Source of the DNA: a virus
Lineage: Duplodnaviria; Heunggongvirae; Uroviricota; Caudoviricetes
Length of the DNA stretch: 19,466 nt
Reading direction: 5' to 3' (one strand)
Virus record (IMG/VR): IMGVR_UViG_3300010430_000005
Span: 1 to 19,466 of that record
Of the stretch, positions 6,713 to 19,466 are shown piece by piece; the first letter of the stretch is position 1, and each line of letters begins with the position of its first letter. The notes under the pieces are model-generated. The model worked only from the letters and a program-made list of their open reading frames with translations. It did no database searches and had not been told where the DNA came from. A program made the position numbers and the translations under genes.

Positions 6713-6799
6713 GGAGAGGTGGTAGAGTCTGGTTTATTACAGCGGTCTTGAAAACCGCCGGACCGCAAGGTCCCCAGGGTTCGAATCCCTGTCTCTCCG
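6713..6799 (+). tRNA. tRNA-Ser(TGA)
   Basis: GCGGT-CTTGAAA-ACCGC, long variable arm, G73. Confidence 0.92.
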
Positions 6800-6980
6800 C
6801 TTACAAGTTAGGAAAAAAAGTTGTTGACAAACTAAAAAGACTTAGTTATTAATAACGAAACATAATAACTTGCTTTATAAGTAAAGGTGGTTAGGTGTAT
6901 AAACGTTGCTGTTAGCGCAACTACCTAATTTCCTTGAGGAGTAATAAAAGAGCGTCGTTTAGACGCTGCCTCAGAAACAT

Positions 6981-7557: not shown

Positions 7558-7620
7558 AAGGATCAGTTCCGCAAAAAGAAAAAACTTTTTATTTGGAAAA
7601 AAGCACAAAATGATCCTGTT
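7558..7620 (+). ncRNA. AGG..TTCMGCAA..CCTG element, copy A
   Basis: 7-bp stem AGGATCA/TGATCCT, conserved TTCCGCAA, internal hairpin with loop ATTTGGA. Confidence 0.7.
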
Positions 7621-7622
7621 TT

Positions 7623-7695
7623 GCCCCTATAGCTCAGCTGGTAGAGCAACTGATTTGTAATCAGTAGGTCCGCGGTTCAAGTCCGTGTGGGGGCA
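7623..7695 (+). tRNA. tRNA-Thr(TGT)
   Basis: CTGAT-TTGTAAT-CAG arm, canonical cloverleaf. Confidence 0.93.
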
Positions 7696-7712
7696 CTAAA
7701 TTGAATTAATTT

Positions 7713-7791
7713 GATCCCTTAGCTCAGCTGGTCATAGAGCGGCCGACTTTTAATCGGCAGGTCCTCGGTTCGAATCCGAGAGGGATCACCA
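7713..7791 (+). tRNA. tRNA-Lys(TTT)
   Basis: GCCGA-CTTTTAA-TCGGC, ACCA end. Confidence 0.92.
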
Positions 7792-7801
7792 TTATTCAAA
7801 T

Positions 7802-7875
7802 CTATCTGTAGCGCAGCCTGGTAGCGCATCTGTTTTGGGTACAGAAGGTCGTGGGTTCGAATCCCTCCAGATAGA
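7802..7875 (+). tRNA. tRNA-Pro(TGG)
   Basis: TCTGT-TTTGGGT-ACAGA. Confidence 0.88.
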
Positions 7876-7975
7876 CAAAAGGCAAGACCTTAGTTTCGTT
7901 AGTCAGTTATGCTTGACGGAAGGTTAGGGGACGACATGGACGCGAAAGGCGGGGGTTGCATGTTGATAAGGTTTT

Positions 7976-8040
7976 AAGGGTCAATTCCGCAAAAAAGAAA
8001 AAACTTTTTATTTGGAAAAAAGCACAAACTGACCCTGTTT
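7976..8040 (+). ncRNA. AGG..TTCMGCAA..CCTG element, copy B
   Basis: Stem AGGGTCA/TGACCCT (compensatory change relative to copy A); interior near-identical to A. Confidence 0.7.
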
Positions 8041-8135
8041 AATGATGGTAGAGATCTGTTTTTAGACTAGAAACTACTAGGGTAAAATGGCAGGTTTGGG
8101 ATAATTGCGAGATGGTGGGGCAAATTATTCGACAT

Positions 8136-8206
8136 GGTGCTATGGTATATGGGTATTATTCTTGTCTGTCTAACAAGAGAATCGGGTTCGAGTCCCGGTA
8201 GCACTG
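8136..8206 (+). tRNA. tRNA-Asp(GTC)
   Basis: CTTGT-CTGTCTA-ACAAG, G73. Confidence 0.85.
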
Positions 8207-8234
8207 CTAATGTTTATGTCTTATAGCATATTAT

Positions 8235-8261
8235 GGGGGATTAGTTCAGTTGGTAGAGCGC
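8235..8261 (+). pseudogene. 5' tRNA fragment (acceptor strand + D-arm)
   Basis: GGGGGATTAGTTCAGTTGGTAGAGCGC then abrupt loss of tRNA sequence. Confidence 0.65.
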
Positions 8262-8267
8262 AACAAT

Positions 8268-8343
8268 GGCCGAGTAGCTCAGTGGTAGAAGCGCTAGTTT
8301 TACACACTAGATGTCGTAGGTTCGATCCCTACCTCGGCTACCA
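8268..8343 (+). tRNA. tRNA-Val(TAC)
   Basis: CTAGT-TTTACAC-ACTAG, ACCA end. Confidence 0.9.
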
Positions 8344-8351
8344 TTTTTCTT

Positions 8352-8927
8352 TCAGCATGTTTTCTTTTGATAGATTCTGAAATTCTTTTTTTTGTGTTCC
8401 TCAGATTTAGCTTTACCCGTTAACGCTTTTCTGTTTTTCTCTCCTCTCGATTTATTTGTTTTCCTATTATTTTCCTTTATTTTTTCTATAGTTTCTTGTG
8501 TATGTTTTCTACCAGATGATTTTTCTCTCAGTATTTGTTTAGTTTTTTCTGAATGTTTATTTCCTAAATTGGGTTTATGATTTCTGGTGCTACTAGCTTT
8601 ACGGTTTGCTTCTAAACATATCATTCTTTGATGATGGGATAGCTCCCTAAACTGCCCATCAGAAGCTTTGTTTAAAATATAAAGAGCATAATTCATTTTA
8701 GTTACGTGTTCCTTTTCAGAAACCATTTTGGGTAATAATCTGTGACAAATATAATGCTCTTTAAATGTTAATAAAACCTTATTATCTTCACTATTATCAC
8801 CTCCAAGTGATTTAGGAATTATATGATGGGATTCAAAATAGATATCTTCTCCTTTGAATCTAGATTGTGATTTTGCTCTGTCTACTATCACATAATAAAT
8901 ATTGGTATATTTGTTGTTCAGAAACAT
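8352..8927 (-). mobile_element. HNH homing endonuclease with NUMOD3-like repeats
   Basis: ESHHIIPKSLGG...NKVLLTFKEHYICHRLL; NLGNKHSEKTK and GRKHTQETIEKI repeats; own late promoter (TATAAATA on minus strand, 8964-8971). Likely frameshift in a T-run near the 3' end. Confidence 0.9.
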
Positions 8928-8983
8928 TTATTATCCTTTACTTTAAAACAATTGCTCTACCAATATTTATAAAACAAAATTTT

Positions 8984-9016
8984 CAAGGTCGAAGGTTCGA
9001 GCCCGTCACCGACTAC
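8984..9016 (+). pseudogene. 3' tRNA fragment (T-arm + acceptor strand)
   Basis: AAGGTCGAAGGTTCGAGCCCGTCACCGACTA-CTA just beyond the HNH promoter. Confidence 0.65.
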
Positions 9017-9024
9017 TAAAATAC

Positions 9025-9053
9025 TTGACACGGCCTATGTATGTGTTATAAAT
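9025..9053 (+). promoter_or_regulatory. Sigma70-type promoter
   Basis: TTGACA-N16-TATAAT upstream of tRNA-Arg(TCT). Confidence 0.7.
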
Positions 9054-9058
9054 TTTAT

Positions 9059-9139
9059 GCCCCCTGTCCCCTCATCAGTCTTCTAAACTGATCCTTAAAG
9101 AGGGATGGAAGGTGCGGGGTTCGATTCCTCCAGGGGGCT
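9059..9139 (+). tRNA. Non-canonical D-arm-less tRNA-Arg(TCT)-like gene
   Basis: GCCCCCTG/CAGGGGGC acceptor, ATCAGT-CTTCTAA-ACTGAT anticodon arm, TTCGATT T-loop, no D-arm, enlarged variable region. Confidence 0.65.
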
Positions 9140-9189
9140 CTTAAAATCATATAAATACTTTTACTTTAAATGTTAGAAGTAGAAGTTAT

Positions 9190-9891
9190 ATGGATTGCCG
9201 ACGTATTTATGATTCTATCATAGAAAAACGAAAATTAGAAACACCAGAAGGGTATGTTGAGAAACATCATATTCTACCGAGAAGTTTGGGTGGAAACGAT
9301 GACGCGGAAAACATCGTATCTCTCACAGCCAGAGAACATTTTGTATGTCATTATCTATTGGCTAAAATGTACGAAAAAGAAACGTTTGAGTGGTATAAGA
9401 TGAATCATGCCTTTATCATTATGAAAGCATCTTCAGATAATCATAAAAGGTATTTCAACAGTAGGTTATACGAAAACTTGCGTAAAAATTTTTCATCTGT
9501 TATGTCAAAGTTGCAGACTGGCAGTGGCAACTCACAATATGGTACTAGATGGGTACATAACATATCTTTAAAGCAAAGTCGTAAGATCCCTAAAAACGAT
9601 CCTCTCCCTGATGGTTGGAGCGAGGGCAGGAAAATTAAATGGCATAATAAAATAGTATGCTGTGGACTGTGCAGTAAAGAATTCGAACAAAAGGCTACTG
9701 AGAGATTCTGCAGTGTTGAATGTAAAAAGAAACATCAACAACCAGATTTTATTTGTAGAGAAGAAGAATTCATTAATCTATACTGTGATTTAGGCTCAAT
9801 GAACAAATCGCTAAAGGCCATGGGTTATCCGGGAGCCATATCACATTATTATAGATGGGCGAAGAAGGTCATTGACTCAAACTCTTTATGA
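9190..9891 (+). mobile_element. HNH homing endonuclease
   Basis: EKHHILPRSLGG.DDAENIVSLTAREHFVCHYLL; late promoter TATAAATA 9150-9157. Confidence 0.9.
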
Positions 9892-9903
9892 AGTTACTTA
9901 TAT

Positions 9904-9923
9904 AAGTCCTCGCGGGATCGCCA
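9904..9923 (+). pseudogene. 3' tRNA fragment ending GCCA
   Basis: AAGT-CCTCG-CGGGATC-G-CCA = end of T-loop, T-stem, acceptor strand, CCA. Confidence 0.55.
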
Positions 9924-9987
9924 ATTTTATGTCGCGAAAGCATTTGGATGTTGATTTGTTTGGACAAATCTAGCGGCGCCAGAATTC

Positions 9988-10073
9988 AAGGAACATTTCC
10001 GCAAGCAACTTAGGATAAAAACAAACTTGAAATTTGTCTAAGTGGTTCGATTCCACAAATAAAGTGTTCCTGT
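9988..10073 (+). ncRNA. AGG..TTCMGCAA..CCTG element, copy C, with anticodon-like and T-like arms
   Basis: Stem AGGAACA/TGTTCCT; ACAAA-CTTGAAA-TTTGT; GTGG-TTCGATT-CCAC. Confidence 0.7.
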
Positions 10074-10081
10074 AGATTAAA

Positions 10082-10134
10082 AAGGATGAGTTCAGCAAAA
10101 TTTATGCATTTGAACAAGCACAGATCATCCTGTT
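10082..10134 (+). ncRNA. AGG..TTCMGCAA..CCTG element, copy D
   Basis: Stem AGGATGA/TCATCCT, TTCAGCAA, ATTTGAA..AAGCACA core shared with A/B. Confidence 0.65.
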
Positions 10135-10143
10135 TTATTTTGT

Positions 10144-10214
10144 GCGGGTATGGTGTAATGGTAACATGCGAGATTTCCAATCTCTTGTTGTCGGTTCGAG
10201 TCCGTCTACCCGCT
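10144..10214 (+). tRNA. tRNA-Gly(TCC)
   Basis: CGAGA-TTTCCAA-TCTCT, U73. Confidence 0.9.
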
Positions 10215-10222
10215 CTAAACTT

Positions 10223-10299
10223 CCCGATTTAGTGTTAGCGGTTAAGCACAGTAGATTGTGGATCTACTAGGTTTGGTTCGAATCCAAAGGTCGGGACCA
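10223..10299 (+). tRNA. tRNA-His(GTG), alphaproteobacterial type (no G-1, A73)
   Basis: GTAGA-TTGTGGA-TCTAC; ends GGTCGGG-A-CCA; base -1 is T. Confidence 0.88.
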
Positions 10300-10321
10300 A
10301 TTTTAACAGAAGGAGAAATGT

Positions 10322-10510
10322 ATGTACGGTATACGAGTTCCTCTTGCTGTGGACGATTATATTTGGGTAACTACTGACAGCCCGAATAACAGAATGTTTG
10401 AACATAAACCACTTCTGTTTTCCACAGAAGAAGAGGCTTACAAGGCGGCTAAAGTGTTTGGTCCTCTTGCGTCGGTAAAGAAATACGAAGAAACAGAAGC
10501 TTTTTGCTAA
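10322..10510 (+). CDS. Hypothetical protein (62 aa)
   Basis: AAGGAG RBS, compact ORF between tRNAs. Confidence 0.7.
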   Translation: MYGIRVPLAVDDYIWVTTDSPNNRMFEHKPLLFSTEEEAYKAAKVFGPLASVKKYEETEAFC

Positions 10511-10525
10511 TAAATCTTTGTATTT

Positions 10526-10598
10526 GGGGTGTTAGCTCAGTCGGGAGAGCAGTTGCTTTGCAAGCATCAGGTCATCGGTTCAAGTCCGATACACTCCA
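10526..10598 (+). tRNA. tRNA-Ala(TGC)
   Basis: GGGGTGT/ACACTCC with G3.U70, loop TTTGCAA. Confidence 0.93.
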
Positions 10599-10695
10599 CT
10601 AAAAGATTATCTTGCCAAGCAAGCAAGCGAAATGATGGTTGACATCATATAAAGAATAACATATAAATTATAATATGTAATCGAAGGAAAGTGAA

Positions 10696-10860
10696 ATGGA
10701 AGTAGTGTTTAAATTTCCGGTTGTGTTCGTTAAAACGAATGGAAAATACAATGTCTTGATTTCGCATGTGTTGTCGACTATCACGACTCTTGCTGCAATT
10801 ACTTTTATGCCTTGGGCAATGCCCGTTTGGATAGCACAAGCTCAACGTAGTTGCCTTTAA
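10696..10860 (+). CDS. Small predicted membrane protein (54 aa)
   Basis: AAGGAA RBS; MEVVFKFPVVFVKTNGKYNVLISHVLSTITTLAAITFMPWAMPVWIAQAQRSCL. Confidence 0.55.
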   Translation: MEVVFKFPVVFVKTNGKYNVLISHVLSTITTLAAITFMPWAMPVWIAQAQRSCL

Positions 10861-10867
10861 GAATATT

Positions 10868-10939
10868 GCGGGTATAGCTCAGGGGTAGAGCATTTCGTTG
10901 CCAACGAAAGTGTCGTGAGTTCGAATCTCATTACCCGCT
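10868..10939 (+). tRNA. tRNA-Gly(GCC)
   Basis: TTTCG-TTGCCAA-CGAAA, U73. Confidence 0.92.
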
Positions 10940-11024
10940 CAAAAAAATGTTCGACAAACAAAGAAAGTAGTTGACATACCTTATCAAATGTCTTATGTTG
11001 TTAATACAACAAAAGGAGACTACA

Positions 11025-11234
11025 ATGTTTACACTCGAACTTAGAAACGGTTTTGATAGCGAATTGGCCGAGGCACAAGGTCGAGTGTCTAAGACGGCTC
11101 CTGTTATGGCTGTTCTAATCGAAAAAAACGAAAACGGCATTCGGAGTGTAGTAGATGTCGTACAAGGTACGATGAAAGAAATTGAGAGCTACTTCAAAAA
11201 CAAAGACATTAAAGAAGTGCTTAACAAGATTTAA
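11025..11234 (+). CDS. Hypothetical protein (69 aa)
   Basis: AAGGAG RBS before ATG 11025; TTGACA promoter at ~10971. Confidence 0.75.
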   Translation: MFTLELRNGFDSELAEAQGRVSKTAPVMAVLIEKNENGIRSVVDVVQGTMKEIESYFKNKDIKEVLNKI

Positions 11235-11246
11235 AGTTGGTTATAT

Positions 11247-11319
11247 TGCGGGGTGGAGCAGCGGTCAGCTCGTCGGTTTCATATGCCGAAGGTCGTAGGT
11301 TCGAATCCTACCCCCGCAA
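11247..11319 (+). tRNA. Second initiator-like tRNA-Met(CAT) with altered anticodon arm
   Basis: fMet-type body; TCGGT-TTCATAT-GCCGA. Confidence 0.8.
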
Positions 11320-11430
11320 CAAAACTAGATTATTAGTGACGTGCCCTTACTATGTGTTTTGGGTTACATGACAATAAGGATCAATTTGCTAATGATTGCA
11401 TTGTCTTGACGATAATTTGGTGACGCTATT

Positions 11431-11553
11431 AAGGAACAGTTCAGCAAACAATGTTTACCAACCAGTGGGTCGTGGGTTCGAATCCCACCATCCGTCAAGT
11501 GGCGGATGTAGTTCAGAGGTAGAACAACCGGCAATACAAAAGATGTTCCTGTT
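11431..11553 (+). ncRNA. Element copy E enclosing a circularly permuted tRNA body
   Basis: AGGAACA/TGTTCCT stem and TTCAGCAA; inside, the tRNA 3' half (11462-11495) precedes the 5' half (11502-11531). Confidence 0.72.
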
Positions 11554-11555
11554 TT

Positions 11556-13569: not shown

Positions 13570-13642
13570 GCTCCTGCCGGCGGATCTGGTGACGGGCCTA
13601 CGAAGCCTGTTTACGAAGGTTCAACTCCTTCCAGGAGCGCCA
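13570..13642 (+). tRNA. tRNA-Arg(ACG), replacement copy
   Basis: GCTCCTG/CAGGAGC-G-CCA; CGGGC-CTACGAA-GCCTG. Confidence 0.8.
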
Positions 13643-14270
13643 ATTCCGTCAAAAGACTTTTTTTCTGTGAATCTAATGAAAAGATCTTTTCATCTAGTTT
13701 CTCAATGTCTTTTTTAATTTTATTTTGTTTGGATAAAATTTTATCGGTCTGTTTCTTATCATAGGCATCCCATGATACTATTCGCTTTTTTATGTAACCT
13801 TTGTTGATATATTCTTTAACATCTGAAGAATCAACTTTTCTACAATCACGAAGTTCTACATTAGTGACCCACGTTGTTCCAAATTGACTATTCCCTTCGC
13901 CTGATTGCGATTCTGACATTATCGTGCCTATATCTTTTCGTGCTGCTTCATACAATCTAGAATTGAAGTATCTTTTATGGGCCCTACTTGATGCATACAT
14001 ATAAGTAAATGCCCTGACCATTTTGTGCCACTCATAACTTTCGCGCTCAAACATTTTGCATAGTAGATAGTGGCATATAAAGTGTTCTCTTGCAGATAAA
14101 AGAACTAGGTTAGAGCTATCATCTGAGCCTCCTATACTTCTAGGAATGATATGATGATTTTCATAATATACATAATTGCGATGGGTTGATCTTCGTTTGA
14201 TCCTAGATTGGCGTATGGCATTATCTATAATGTTATGATAAATTTTAGTATATTTGTTTTCGATAAACAC
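13611..14270 (-). mobile_element. HNH homing endonuclease
   Basis: YENHHIIPRSIGGSDDSSNLVLLSAREHFICHYLL; GTG start, AAGGAG RBS, late promoter at 14301-14308 (minus); paralogous to 9190. Confidence 0.9.
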
Positions 14271-16410: not shown

Positions 16411-16896
16411 ATGTTCACACAATCTCAAATAGAAGAAATAGTCAACCTATTGATGGACTTGGATAGCAACACCAAAATCTACCTAGGTTGTGATTCTGTT
16501 AGGTATTTCAAAGACGGAAAAGCAGGTGCTAAATTCGCCACCGTATGCATCATCCACATGAACGGAAACAAGGGATGTCGCATATTCAAAAATATATCCA
16601 AAGAGTCTGACTACGATGTTAAGCAGAATAGGCCCAAAATGCGTATGCTCAACGAAGTTCGCAAGGTGTGTGAGTTATACAATCAACTCATACCATACCT
16701 AGACGAATATGATATAGAAATACATATGGACATTAATCTTGACCCTAAGCACGGATCTAGCTGTGCGGCTAAAGAAGCCGCAGGTTATGTTTTAGGTATG
16801 ACAGGCCTCCCAGAAGAAAAAGTCAAGTTCAAACCCGATTCTTTTGCTGCGTCATTCGGGGCAGATAGAGTTGTCCAAAAAAGTTTCGTAGCCTAA
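16411..16896 (+). CDS. RNase H-like YkuK-family protein
   Basis: IYLGCDS...ATVCIIH...RMLNEV...EIHMDIN..GS...EAAGYV.G...KPDSFAASFGAD. Confidence 0.82.
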   Translation: MFTQSQIEEIVNLLMDLDSNTKIYLGCDSVRYFKDGKAGAKFATVCIIHMNGNKGCRIFKNISKESDYDVKQNRPKMRMLNEVRKVCELYNQLIPYLDEYDIEIHMDINLDPKHGSSCAAKEAAGYVLGMTGLPEEKVKFKPDSFAASFGADRVVQKSFVA

Positions 16897-18479: not shown

Positions 18480-18997
18480 AAATATCTCTTTTATAAATAT
18501 AGAGGCAGCGGAACAAGATGGTTAAATCATCTCAAAAAACACGGAAACAATGTTTCAACTGAAATACTCATAGAGACTGATGATAAATCCGTAATCAAAG
18601 AAAAGGGAATAGAATACAGCAAACTTTATAATATTGTAGAATCGCAAGAATGGGCAAATCTTAAAATTGAAGAAGGCGACGGTGGGTGGCAAAAATCTAG
18701 TGGTATAAGGTCAACTTCTTTTAAAAAGGGAGAAGACAGGGTTAAAGAACTTAGTAAAGCAGGAAACGACGCCAAAAGAAAAAAAAGTTCTAAAAAATCC
18801 AGATGTATATAAAGAATCGTATAAAAAAAGTTTCTGAGTATCAAAAAGAAAATAATAGTATGAAGAATAAATGTTGGTGTGTTCCAAAAAATCTTACAGA
18901 CAAAACACAATTTAATGCTAACAAAAGAGTTTTTGATGTTAATAATATACCCGAAGGTTGGTATAAGGGAAGGAAAATGGAATACTATAAGAAGTGA
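18480..18997 (+). pseudogene. Degenerate GIY-YIG (Seg-like) homing endonuclease
   Basis: YKYRGSGTRWLNHLKKHG...EIL and terminal IPEGWYKGRK; N-terminal GIY part absent; removing one A from each of two A-runs (~18780, ~18825) restores one frame. Confidence 0.65.
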
Positions 18998-18999
18998 TA

Positions 19000-19262
19000 C
19001 TGTCTTATAGTCTAAGCACGAGTAAGAGATTGATGTGCGGACTCGGTTTCGATACCGACGCCTCCACCAGAAAACAATTGAGGGGGCGAAAGGGTTTCGA
19101 CGTAGATTGAAATCTTATTTCTAGGTATCCGTGGTGGCTTACGATATTCGGCCAAACTCTATAATTGCAAATGACAATTATGCGCCAGAAATGGCAATTG
19201 CTGCTTAATTAAGATTAAGCCCGCGGGGTTTTTCATTTTGTACCTAGCAACAGAAACAAAAT
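19000..19262 (+). ncRNA. ssrA: Two-piece (circularly permuted) tmRNA
   Basis: Acceptor piece ends CGCCTCC-A-CCA (19059-19069); coding piece starts GGGGGCG at 19082 (G3.U70 pair); tag frame 19167-19208 = ANDNYAPEMAIAA*. The 5' boundary is approximate. Confidence 0.92.
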
Positions 19263-19292
19263 GAATACAATCACATCACACAAGGAATATTT

Positions 19293-19466
19293 ATGTTTAT
19301 TAATATCAACAACCCAATTATGTCTCAACCATCTTTGACTGTAGGAAATAATACTTCTATCGGAGCATCTTTCGAACCAGTAAAGGCAGGTAAAAAGGCA
19401 TCGCATGTAGTTTTCGTGTTGGACGAGTCTTCTTCTATGGGCATGTGTCGAGACACAACAATTTCT
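19293..19466 (+). CDS. vWA-domain protein, 3' partial
   Basis: AAGGA RBS; HVVFVLDESSSM MIDAS (DxSxS) motif. Confidence 0.75.
   Translation, partial: MFININNPIMSQPSLTVGNNTSIGASFEPVKAGKKASHVVFVLDESSSMGMCRDTTIS

What the first reader, a model, noticed from the sequence alone, without database searches (positions are those of the whole stretch)
7558..11553. Five-copy covarying RNA element AGG-N4-N-TTCMGCAA...CCTG interspersed among tRNAs
Seen: copies at 7558, 7976, 9988, 10082 and 11431. Their 7-bp closing stems are AGGATCA/TGATCCT, AGGGTCA/TGACCCT, AGGAACA/TGTTCCT, AGGATGA/TCATCCT and AGGAACA/TGTTCCT, so the changes are compensatory. Each has an invariant TTC(C/A)GCAA after the 5' strand and a G after the 3' strand, like a 7-bp acceptor stem plus discriminator. 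Interiors vary from about 25 to about 100 nt. Inference: a structured RNA family such as tRNA mimics, processing signals, or substrates of a phage nuclease/ligase.
Basis: partly seen in the sequence, partly recalled or inferred. Interest (0 to 1): 0.78.

Follow-up and report, generated by a model that had tools for sequence, protein, structure and literature searches.

The report
Partner RNAs of phage Ro60-like protein
The five repeats are real small structured RNAs that share one "handle", a closing stem plus a UUC(C/A)GCAA motif; in hundreds of phages this handle sits beside a ring-shaped Ro60-like protein gene, so they are most likely that protein's Y-RNA-like partners, here scattered through the phage's tRNA genes.

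Summary
There are five exact copies of AGGNNNA-N-TTCMGCAA, each closed by a perfectly complementary 7-nt strand followed by G, all on the tRNA strand, where chance predicts 0.01 copies. It is not an acceptor-stem mimic. It is the docking "handle" of an RNA family absent from Rfam that travels with a ~475-aa phage protein (Pfam DUF2828 + DUF7788, with a MIDAS motif). The predicted fold of this protein matches only Ro60/Rsr structures over its full length. This phage carries the gene 47 kb away, at 58.7 kb, next to an RNA ligase and an RNA-repair HAD phosphatase. Two more handle RNAs lie there; in one the handle is capped by a loop inside a tRNA-Pro-like body. In 80 loci fetched by protein alone, 73 carry handles on the gene strand (168, against 3 on the opposite strand). 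A covariance model built without this genome finds copies 1, 2 and 4 at E 5e-10 to 8e-8. Copy 5 has YrlA architecture (Rfam YrlA 39.5 bits, below threshold). Copy 3 carries an anticodon-arm mimic and a T arm. Protein binding is inferred, not shown. The Dictyostelium Class I RNA model picks out these handle RNAs in other phages, but not these five copies. This scan has reported the same RNA class many times on other DNA; in print I found only a speculation for one Listeria phage.

The parts
7559..7618 (+). Copy 1, 60 nt. Handle: 5' strand 7559-7565, motif GTTCCGCAA 7566-7574, 3' strand 7611-7617, G at 7618. Cargo: a 6-bp hairpin with a 7-nt loop AUUUGGA at about 7585-7603. It lies 3 nt after tRNA-Met (ends 7555), and G-UUUU separates it from tRNA-Thr (starts 7623).
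   Evidence: Model R1, built without this genome, scores it 48.1 bits, E 5e-10. Constrained fold.
7977..8037 (+). Copy 2, 61 nt. It is a paralogue of copy 1 with the same cargo. Its stem is AGGGTCA/TGACCCT, one compensatory pair exchange relative to copy 1.
   Evidence: R1 scores it 41.8 bits, E 2e-8.
9989..10072 (+). Copy 3, 84 nt. The handle carries a cargo made of an anticodon-stem-loop mimic (10021-10037, 5-bp stem, loop CUUGAAA) inside an outer stem, followed by a T-arm-like hairpin (10042-10056, loop UUCGAUU).
   Evidence: The loop is identical to the anticodon loop of this phage's tRNA-Ser(UGA) at 6713-6800. R1 scores it 16.3 bits, E 0.055.
10083..10132 (+). Copy 4, 50 nt, the shortest. 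It consists of the handle plus a small cargo. It lies 10 nt after copy 3 and 11 nt before tRNA-Gly (starts 10144).
   Evidence: R1 scores it 39.5 bits, E 8e-8.
11432..11551 (+). Copy 5, 120 nt, a YrlA-type permuted tRNA mimic. Handle: 5' strand 11432-11438, motif 11439-11447, 3' strand 11544-11550, G at 11551. It encloses a T arm (11472-11488), an 8-bp acceptor-like hairpin closed by a 4-nt loop (11489-11508) and a D arm (about 11509-11526). G-UUUU separates it from tRNA-Met (starts 11556).
   Evidence: Rfam YrlA RF02553 scores it 39.5 bits, E 2e-6, over the full model 1-114, below the gathering score of 69. Folds. R1 does not report it, because of the long insert.

Best explanation
The five elements are trans-acting small RNAs of a Y-RNA-like class. 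Each consists of a conserved handle and a variable cargo. The handle is a terminal 7-bp helix that starts A-G-G and ends C-C-U. It is flanked by a conserved A and G, carries an unpaired U-N-C-M-G-C-A-A on the 5' side and an A-rich strand on the 3' side. I infer that the handle is the docking site for the phage's Ro60-like ring protein (DUF2828 + DUF7788/vWA, encoded at 58,728-60,149 of the same record). The cargo would display tRNA parts: a whole tRNA body without its anticodon loop in copy 5, an anticodon arm plus T arm in copy 3, and small hairpins in copies 1, 2 and 4. The elements lie in the tRNA operons on the tRNA strand, only 3-11 nt from neighbouring tRNAs. They are therefore probably co-transcribed and cut out by the tRNA-end processing enzymes, RNase P at the 5' end of the downstream tRNA and a 3'-end enzyme at the upstream tRNA (inferred). 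By analogy with Rsr-YrlA and Rsr-Y RNA-PNPase, the particle would bring tRNA-binding enzymes or damaged tRNAs to the ring protein. This fits a phage that also encodes 30 tRNAs, a tmRNA and an RNA ligase/phosphatase repair set beside the Ro60-like gene. Shown here: the family, its covariation, its linkage to the gene, and the Ro60 fold of the protein model. Inferred: binding, processing and biological role.
For: 1. The five copies are exact where chance predicts 0.01.
2. A DNA-pattern scan of IMG/VR that used no protein information returned 17 loci. Twelve had perfect stems at positions the pattern left free, and 11 of these lie directly beside a homologue of one G000 protein.
3. That protein matches Pfam DUF2828 + DUF7788 and PHROG 850 'RNA-binding protein', and has a DxSxS MIDAS motif. 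Its AlphaFold model (pLDDT 76) has as its top 12 PDB matches only Ro60/Rsr/TROVE structures over the full length, at E 9e-9 to 4e-5 and TM about 0.5. These include Thermus phage phiLo Ro60.
4. The converse also holds. Of 80 loci fetched by protein alone, 73 carry at least one handle within 2 kb on the gene strand: 168 elements, against 3 on the other strand and 2.4 in shuffles.
5. Pairing was tested without selecting for it: 157 of 314 motif sites have the complement, against 3 to 6 in controls, with 43 different stems. Six of seven pairs show double changes.
6. Model R1, built only from other phages, ranks window copies 1, 2 and 4 first, at 48.1, 41.8 and 39.5 bits.
7. In G000 the gene is preceded by a promoter-like site, then a tRNA-Pro-like RNA with the handle inserted as a capped arm, then a short handle RNA just before the ribosome-binding site.
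8. Copy 5 has the YrlA order T arm, closed acceptor, D arm.
9. The same handles lie beside the gene in Mycobacterium phage MAckerman (gene annotated 'Ro-like RNA binding protein'), E. coli phage Alf5 and Listeria phage WIL-2.
10. For a P100-like Listeria phage, three very abundant transcripts less than 2 kb upstream of the Rsr-like gene have been published (PMC12282133).
11. An RNA ligase and HAD_SAK_2 lie just upstream of the gene.
12. Handle RNAs lying tens of kilobases from the gene also occur in complete related genomes.
Against: Binding has not been shown; it rests on gene-RNA linkage. The five window copies lie 47-51 kb from the gene, beyond the 4 kb used to call Y RNAs. The protein does not match Pfam TROVE and has no sequence-level PDB hit, so its kinship to Ro60 rests on one predicted fold with TM about 0.5. 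The motif differs from the published Ro60-binding motifs GGUCCGA and GNCGAAN0-1G. Copy 5 scores below the YrlA threshold, and R1 does not report it. Copy 3 is only marginal with R1 (E 0.055). No expression data exist for this uncultured phage. A proposed 3-bp extension of the stem is paired in only 60% of cells.
Confidence: 0.75

Rival explanations
1. The elements are processing punctuation of the tRNA operons. In this reading they are acceptor-stem-like minihelices that RNase P, RNase Z or RNase E recognises in order to cut the polycistronic precursor, with no role for the Ro60-like protein.
For: The stem is 7 bp, followed by a conserved G and U-rich spacers. The elements lie 3-11 nt from tRNAs on the same strand. 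In another phage they also alternate with tRNAs.
Against: Most family members lie next to the Ro60-like gene, often without any tRNA nearby. The stem also works capped by a loop inside tRNA bodies. The conserved unpaired CAGCAA motif and A-rich strand have no counterpart in RNase P or Z substrates. Most tRNA-tRNA junctions in this window lack the element.
Confidence: 0.08
2. The elements are decoy or sponge RNAs that act alone. Their tRNA-like heads would soak up host anticodon nucleases or other tRNA-targeting defence enzymes. The handle would serve only for stability, and the linkage to the gene would reflect co-regulation.
For: Cargos mimic anticodon arms with 7-nt loops of the form C/A-U-NNN-R-A. 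Copy 3 repeats the loop of the phage tRNA-Ser(UGA). The phage invests heavily in tRNAs and RNA repair.
Against: This does not explain why an invariant handle with a specific unpaired motif is kept across phages of several phyla, always beside the same protein gene. Copies 1, 2 and 4 have only weak or no anticodon-arm likeness. This rival overlaps the main reading, since a decoy could act while bound to the protein.
Confidence: 0.08
3. The elements are cis-regulatory or autoregulatory protein-binding sites. In this reading they are operators on mRNA or leader RNA for the Ro60-like gene rather than stand-alone RNAs.
For: Many handles sit in the 5' leader directly before the ribosome-binding site of the gene. 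G000 58,671-58,712 and L011 are examples.
Against: The five window copies are 47 kb from the gene, between tRNAs, with no downstream ORF to regulate. Several loci place the handles downstream of the gene.
Confidence: 0.04
4. The elements are small mobile or selfish DNA (MITE-like, with terminal inverted repeats, or cargo of the neighbouring HNH homing endonucleases), or else a self-cleaving ribozyme.
For: The elements have 7-nt inverted termini and several copies per genome. Three HNH endonuclease genes lie in the same region.
Against: The termini differ between copies by compensatory changes, which points to selection on RNA pairing rather than a transposase site. The elements show strict strand bias, 168 against 3. 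No target-site duplications were seen. No ribozyme family of Rfam matches, even at E up to 10.
Confidence: 0.03

Closest known systems
Ro60 (Rsr) with Y RNAs, especially bacterial and mycobacteriophage YrlA/YrlB (Chen et al. 2014, PMC4201824; Rfam RF02553)
   Same: A ring protein with the Ro60 fold plus a vWA/MIDAS domain. Several small RNAs per genome share a terminal stem with an adjacent conserved 5'-side motif and carry different heads. One head per genome is a tRNA body with a closed acceptor stem and the order T arm, acceptor, D arm. The RNAs are usually encoded next to the gene on the same strand. There is an association with RNA ligase and repair genes.
   Different: The protein matches DUF2828/DUF7788, not Pfam TROVE. 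The motif is U-N-C-M-G-C-A-A rather than GNCGAAN0-1G or GGUCCGA. Copy 5 and the mycobacteriophage example reach only about 40 of the 69 bits required. The other members are invisible to RF02553. The cargos are far more varied, from 26 to about 240 nt and including anticodon-arm mimics. Here the RNAs are dispersed in tRNA arrays 47 kb from the gene. A capped form is inserted into whole tRNAs.
Class I RNAs of dictyostelid social amoebae (Kjellin et al. 2021, PMC7919456; Rfam RF01414)
   Same: They are about 60 nt long, with ends joined by a short covarying stem that begins with G. A conserved motif lies directly after the 5' strand; the RF01414 consensus is CUUACAGCAA. The interior is variable and the 3' part A-rich. 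The RNA starts AAG and ends CUGU. There are many copies per genome. In four of five phage genomes tested, the best RF01414 hits were full-length and coincided with handle RNAs found by R1 (32.5 bits and E 2e-5 at best).
   Different: All phage hits fall below the RF01414 gathering score of 41.5. The five window copies give no hit at all. The phage motif is one base shorter between stem and CAGCAA. Class I RNAs are reported as unique to Dictyostelia, have a DUSE promoter, and their only named direct binder is an RRM protein. I could not test whether dictyostelids have a DUF2828 protein that binds them.
Abundant unassigned transcripts upstream of the Rsr-like gene of Listeria phage CKA15 (mSystems 2025, PMC12282133)
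   Same: Three highly expressed regions lie less than 2 kb upstream of, and co-directional with, a protein that HHpred assigns to Rsr. The authors suggest they may be Y RNAs. A P100-like Listeria phage in the collection (WIL-2) has three handle RNAs 110-385 nt upstream of its homologue.
   Different: The paper defines no motif, structure or family and leaves siRNA or coding alternatives open. I did not check that the CKA15 regions are the same elements as those in WIL-2.

Membership tests
Y RNA (Ro60-bound ncRNA) | Bound by a Ro60 protein | not testable with these tools
   Only gene-RNA linkage is available.
Y RNA (Ro60-bound ncRNA) | 5' and 3' ends form a stem that carries the protein-binding site, with a conserved motif on the 5' strand side | tested here: met
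   The terminal stem is 7 bp, with 6 of 7 pairs covarying, and an invariant C-x-G-C-A follows directly after it.
Y RNA (Ro60-bound ncRNA) | Published Ro60-binding sequence (GGUCCGA in animals and Deinococcus; GNCGAAN0-1G in YrlA/YrlB) | tested here: not met
   The motif here is UUC(C/A)GCAA, and U-W-C-A-G-C-A-A across the family.
Y RNA (Ro60-bound ncRNA) | A Ro60 orthologue (TROVE + vWA) in the genome, with the RNA within about 4 kb on the same strand | tested here: inconclusive
   Pfam TROVE is absent from G000 and from 5 related records. A Ro60-fold DUF2828+vWA protein is present. The family lies within 2 kb in 73 of 80 loci, but the five window copies are 47-51 kb away.
YrlA (Rfam RF02553) | Score at or above the gathering threshold of 69 bits | tested here: not met
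   Copy 5 scores 39.5 bits. Copies 1-4 give no hit at E up to 10.
YrlA (Rfam RF02553) | tRNA-like module in the order T arm, closed acceptor-like stem, D arm, held between the strands of the terminal stem | tested here: met
   Met for copy 5 only.
Dictyostelium Class I RNA (Rfam RF01414) | Score at or above the gathering threshold of 41.5 bits | tested here: not met
   No hit on the five copies. Family members in other phages reach 17-32.5 bits.
Dictyostelium Class I RNA (Rfam RF01414) | Short covarying terminal stem, conserved motif after the 5' strand, start AAG, end CUGU, about 60 nt | tested here: met
   The copies read (A)AGG...CCUGUU with UUCMGCAA after the stem. Copies 1, 2 and 4 are 50-61 nt.
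tRNA | Cloverleaf with anticodon arm and an open 7-bp acceptor stem recognised by tRNA callers | tested here: not met
   ARAGORN and Rfam tRNA call none of the five. In copy 5 the acceptor stem is closed by a loop.

The most novel reading that the evidence does not exclude
The phage handle RNAs and the Class I RNAs of social amoebae may be the same kind of molecule. Both would be the RNA partners of DUF2828-type Ro60 paralogues, a second Ro/Y-type ribonucleoprotein lineage shared by phages, bacteria and eukaryotes. In phages its interchangeable tRNA-shaped heads would serve tRNA surveillance, repair or decoy functions against host tRNA-cutting defences.
Probability: 0.25. Interest if true: 0.85.

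Novelty: new variant of a known kind. Interest (0 to 1): 0.66.

Why it matters
Ro60 and Y RNAs are an old puzzle. The protein is a human autoantigen, and its bacterial and phage versions are tied to RNA decay and repair, but few partner RNAs are known. Those that are known were found only next to TROVE-annotated genes. Here a different and much larger protein lineage is involved. This lineage gains a recognisable partner-RNA class with a simple sequence signature, so the particle can be tested directly in culturable phages. The window adds three points. The RNAs need not sit by the gene and can be embedded in tRNA operons. One phage can carry at least seven of them with different heads. The handle can be open-ended or capped inside a tRNA. 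Many intergenic "spacers" in phage tRNA arrays may therefore be genes. The likeness to Dictyostelium Class I RNAs, whose function and origin are unknown, offers a concrete protein candidate to test there.

Tried and rejected
- Pfam TROVE was searched in G000 and in five related viral records, one of them complete. There were no matches. This first argued against a Ro60 link, until the DUF2828 protein was found.
- A sequence search of the protein against PDB chains found nothing at E up to 10.
- Rfam at gathering thresholds reported only tRNAs and the tmRNA. At E up to 10 it reported no ribozyme, riboswitch or other family on copies 1-4.
- RF01414 was run on G000 and on copy 4 alone. It gave no hit on the five copies. 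An attempt to print the RF01414 consensus from a weak G000 hit failed and succeeded later on L030.
- I tested extending the stem by three pairs (position 8 and the UU). Only 60% of cells pair, so I do not claim it.
- The promoter and terminator scan gave counts no higher than in shuffles, and no promoter placed to start any copy. A TTGACG/TATTAA pair before copy 5 would start transcription inside the stem, so I rejected it.
- Motif-plus-stem sites at about 34.7 kb (minus strand), 61.2 kb and 83.7 kb of G000 lie inside ORFs and lack AGG/CCU. I treat them as chance.
I could not verify this. T5 Rad, the candidate I checked, is an unrelated 189-aa protein, and a literature search gave nothing.
- A literature search for DUF2828 returned only plant and tardigrade gene lists.
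- Model R1 does not report copy 5, because the 96-nt insert is penalised. Its membership rests on the exact handle and on the YrlA-like cargo.

Full report
**What is in the window**

The window is the first 19.5 kb of a 150,280-bp uncultured virus record with 40% G+C and a CheckV completeness estimate of 75%. It holds 30 tRNA genes and a permuted alpha-type tmRNA, all on the + strand.

The pattern AGGNNNANTTCMGCAA occurs five times exactly, at 7559, 7977, 9989, 10083 and 11432, all on the + strand. Shuffles give a mean of 0.01 matches. Each heptamer has its exact reverse complement followed by G, 42-112 nt downstream.

Copies 1 and 2 share almost the same interior but differ in the stem by one A-U to G-C exchange. 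The elements sit 3-11 nt from neighbouring tRNAs. For copies 1 and 5 the spacer to the next tRNA is exactly G-UUUU.

**First lead**

Rfam at gathering thresholds sees only tRNAs and the tmRNA. At relaxed thresholds, copy 5 (11441-11555) aligns to the whole YrlA model RF02553 at 39.5 bits and E 2e-6, below the threshold of 69. Its interior is a T arm, an 8-bp acceptor-like hairpin closed by a tetraloop, and a D arm. This is the permuted tRNA module that defines YrlA, the Y RNA of bacterial Ro60 (PMC4201824). Pfam TROVE is nevertheless absent from this record and from five related ones.

**Finding the partner protein**

I scanned IMG/VR with a pure DNA pattern that fixed only AAGG, A, TTCCGCAA and CCTGTT. 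It returned 17 loci, and in 12 the four unconstrained stem positions were perfectly complementary.

A tblastn of all G000 ORFs against these loci showed one protein, G000 58,728-60,149, with a homologue directly beside the element in 11 of the 12. The protein matches Pfam DUF2828 + DUF7788 and PHROG 850 'RNA-binding protein'. It has a DVSGSM MIDAS motif.

Its AlphaFold model has a mean pLDDT of 76. The top 12 PDB matches are exclusively Ro60/Rsr/TROVE structures aligned over the full length, at E 9e-9 to 4e-5 and TM about 0.5. They include Xenopus and human Ro60, Deinococcus Rsr and Thermus phage phiLo Ro60. The next matches are isolated vWA domains. The protein is therefore a Ro60-fold protein that Pfam TROVE does not recognise.

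**The converse test**

I fetched 80 viral loci by protein similarity alone, with 2 kb of flank. Seventy-three carry at least one handle on the gene strand. That is 168 elements, against 3 on the opposite strand and 2.4 in shuffled sequence.

I then tested pairing without selecting for it. Of 314 occurrences of TNCNGCAA on the gene strand, 157 have the exact complement of the preceding heptamer 30-300 nt downstream. Reversed or shuffled heptamers give 3-6 hits, and the opposite strand gives 6 of 222. There are 43 different stems.

On a 47-sequence alignment, six of the seven stem pairs show changes on both sides. A possible 3-bp extension is paired in only 60% of cells and is not claimed.

The family consensus is U-[A-G-G-W-U-N-N]-N-U-W-C-A-G-C-A-A, then an A-rich stretch, then [N-N-A-W-C-C-U]-G-U-U.

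**Independent membership test for the window copies**

I built covariance model R1 from 44 elements of other phages, with none from G000. It ranks window copies 1, 2 and 4 first, at 48.1, 41.8 and 39.5 bits (E 5e-10 to 8e-8). It finds a short element beside the G000 gene at 19.7 bits and copy 3 at 16.3 bits (E 0.055). Copy 5, with its 96-nt insert, is not reported.

**The rest of the system in this phage**

Upstream of the Ro60-like gene lies a promoter-like TTGACA/TATAGT. It is followed by a tRNA-Pro(UGG)-like RNA in which a 48-nt arm is inserted into the anticodon stem. That arm is the handle with its stem capped by GCAA (CAATCCT-GCAA-AGGATTG-T-TACAGCAA). A 42-nt handle RNA follows, just before the ribosome-binding site. 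Rfam tRNA scores the tRNA-like body at 39.6 bits.

Capped handles with loops GUAA, GACA and GUAC occur in three other loci, again inside tRNA bodies. The 7-bp stem therefore does not need free ends. The conserved G and the conserved A before AGG become the first and last loop bases.

Just upstream of the gene lie an HNH-RNA ligase (PF09414) and a HAD phosphatase of the 'Swiss Army Knife RNA repair' type (PF18143).

**Cargos**

Many short family members carry a 5-6-bp hairpin with a 7-nt loop of the form C-U-NNN-A-A, which mimics an anticodon arm. Copy 3 carries such a hairpin, and its loop CUUGAAA equals the anticodon loop of the phage's own tRNA-Ser(UGA). It also carries a T-arm-like hairpin. 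With the motif held unpaired, copies 1 and 2 fold into a 6-bp hairpin with loop AUUUGGA. Other phages carry cargos of up to about 240 nt that match no Rfam family.

**Breadth**

The protein also matches 711 named phage records. These include FelixO1-like coliphages and Salmonella phages, mycobacteriophages (annotated 'Ro-like RNA binding protein'), and Listeria, Staphylococcus, Campylobacter, Vibrio, Bacillus and Enterococcus phages.

I verified handles in three named phages:
- Mycobacterium phage MAckerman has three RNAs after the gene, the middle one scoring 39.8 bits against YrlA.
- E. coli phage Alf5 has four RNAs in the tRNA array after the gene, one of them YrlA-like.
- Listeria phage WIL-2 has three RNAs before the gene.

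Chen et al. searched only TROVE-annotated genomes, so this lineage was outside their survey.

In complete related genomes, R1 also finds handle RNAs tens of kilobases from the gene. The dispersed arrangement seen in the window is therefore not unique.

**What is in print**

I found no description of the handle or of the family. A 2025 multi-omics paper on a P100-like Listeria phage reports three very abundant transcripts less than 2 kb upstream of an Rsr-like gene. It suggests, among other options, that they may be Y RNAs (PMC12282133). This fits the three handles seen in WIL-2.

**Likeness to Dictyostelium Class I RNAs**

Class I RNAs are about 60 nt long. They start AAG and end CUGU, have a short covarying terminal stem, and carry an 11-nt motif after the 5' strand (PMC7919456). 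The RF01414 consensus reads stem-CUUACAGCAA, then an A-rich stretch, then stem-UG.

I ran RF01414 over five phage genomes. In four of them its best hits were full-length and coincided to within 3 nt with R1-defined handle RNAs. The best scores were 32.5 and 25.5 bits in one phage, and 20.1, 19.7 and 17.5 in others. All are below the 41.5-bit threshold. The five window copies, which have UUCC or UUCA instead of UACA, are not hit. The resemblance is real at the family level, but common descent is unproven.

**Earlier notes of this scan**

The scan has reported the same RNA class and protein many times on other DNA, and the tRNA-Pro-like RNA at 58.5 kb of this same genome. I reached the protein link independently, before opening those notes. 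I then used them for three things: the exact parse of the 48-nt arm, the repair cluster (checked) and the Class I lead (checked). A claim there that a family member is a known anti-defence protein could not be verified.

**Verdict**

The best reading, at about 0.75, is that the five elements are Y-RNA-like partner RNAs of the phage's Ro60-like protein. They would be embedded in and processed from tRNA operons, with tRNA-derived heads. Binding, processing and role are inferences.

Noticed in passing
window 9058-9139 (+): An odd tRNA-like gene that ARAGORN does not call. It has an 8-bp acceptor-like stem, a 6-bp anticodon arm with loop CUUCUAA (anticodon UCU, Arg) and a T-arm-like UUCGAUU, but no normal D arm. 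Rfam tRNA-Sec scores it only 29.1 bits. A TTGACA-18-TAAATT promoter-like site lies at 9025-9054, directly upstream.
   Followed up: partly
window 8236-8267 and 8352-8927 (-): A 5' tRNA half (acceptor strand, D arm, start of the anticodon stem) abuts tRNA-Val at 8268. An HNH/NUMOD3 homing-endonuclease gene follows on the opposite strand. A T-arm-like fragment lies at about 8985-9012. This looks like debris of endonuclease-driven rearrangement of the tRNA array. Two more HNH genes lie at 9190-9891 and 13611-14270.
   Followed up: partly
window 7877-7976 and 8038-8135 (+): About 100 nt on each side of copy 2, between tRNA-Pro and tRNA-Asp, contain no tRNA, ORF or Rfam match. Both fold somewhat better than shuffles (z -1.9 and -2.4). 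They may be further structured RNAs.
   Followed up: partly
window 16411-16896 (+): A 161-aa RNase H-like protein (Pfam PF04308). Its homologues lie within 2 kb of the Ro60-like gene, on the same strand, in 17 of 80 protein-anchored loci. It is a possible enzymatic partner of the particle, encoded here in the window rather than beside the gene.
   Followed up: partly
window 18954-19299 (+): A permuted (two-piece, alpha-type) tmRNA gene with tag peptide ANDNYAPEMAIAA lies at the end of the tRNA region. Rfam tmRNA_permuted scores it 105 bits.
   Followed up: no
L004 6859-7094 (also L002, L071, L074): A handle RNA with a 236-nt G+C-rich structured cargo and no Rfam match lies directly upstream of the Ro60-like gene in a tRNA-rich phage contig. 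Cargos of 200-280 nt recur in many loci.
   Followed up: no
L106 4214-6094 (G000 56,213-58,093): An HNH-RNA ligase fusion (PF01844 + PF09414) and a HAD_SAK_2 phosphatase (PF18143) lie immediately upstream of the Ro60-like locus. Together with the 30 tRNAs this looks like a tRNA replace-and-repair island.
   Followed up: partly
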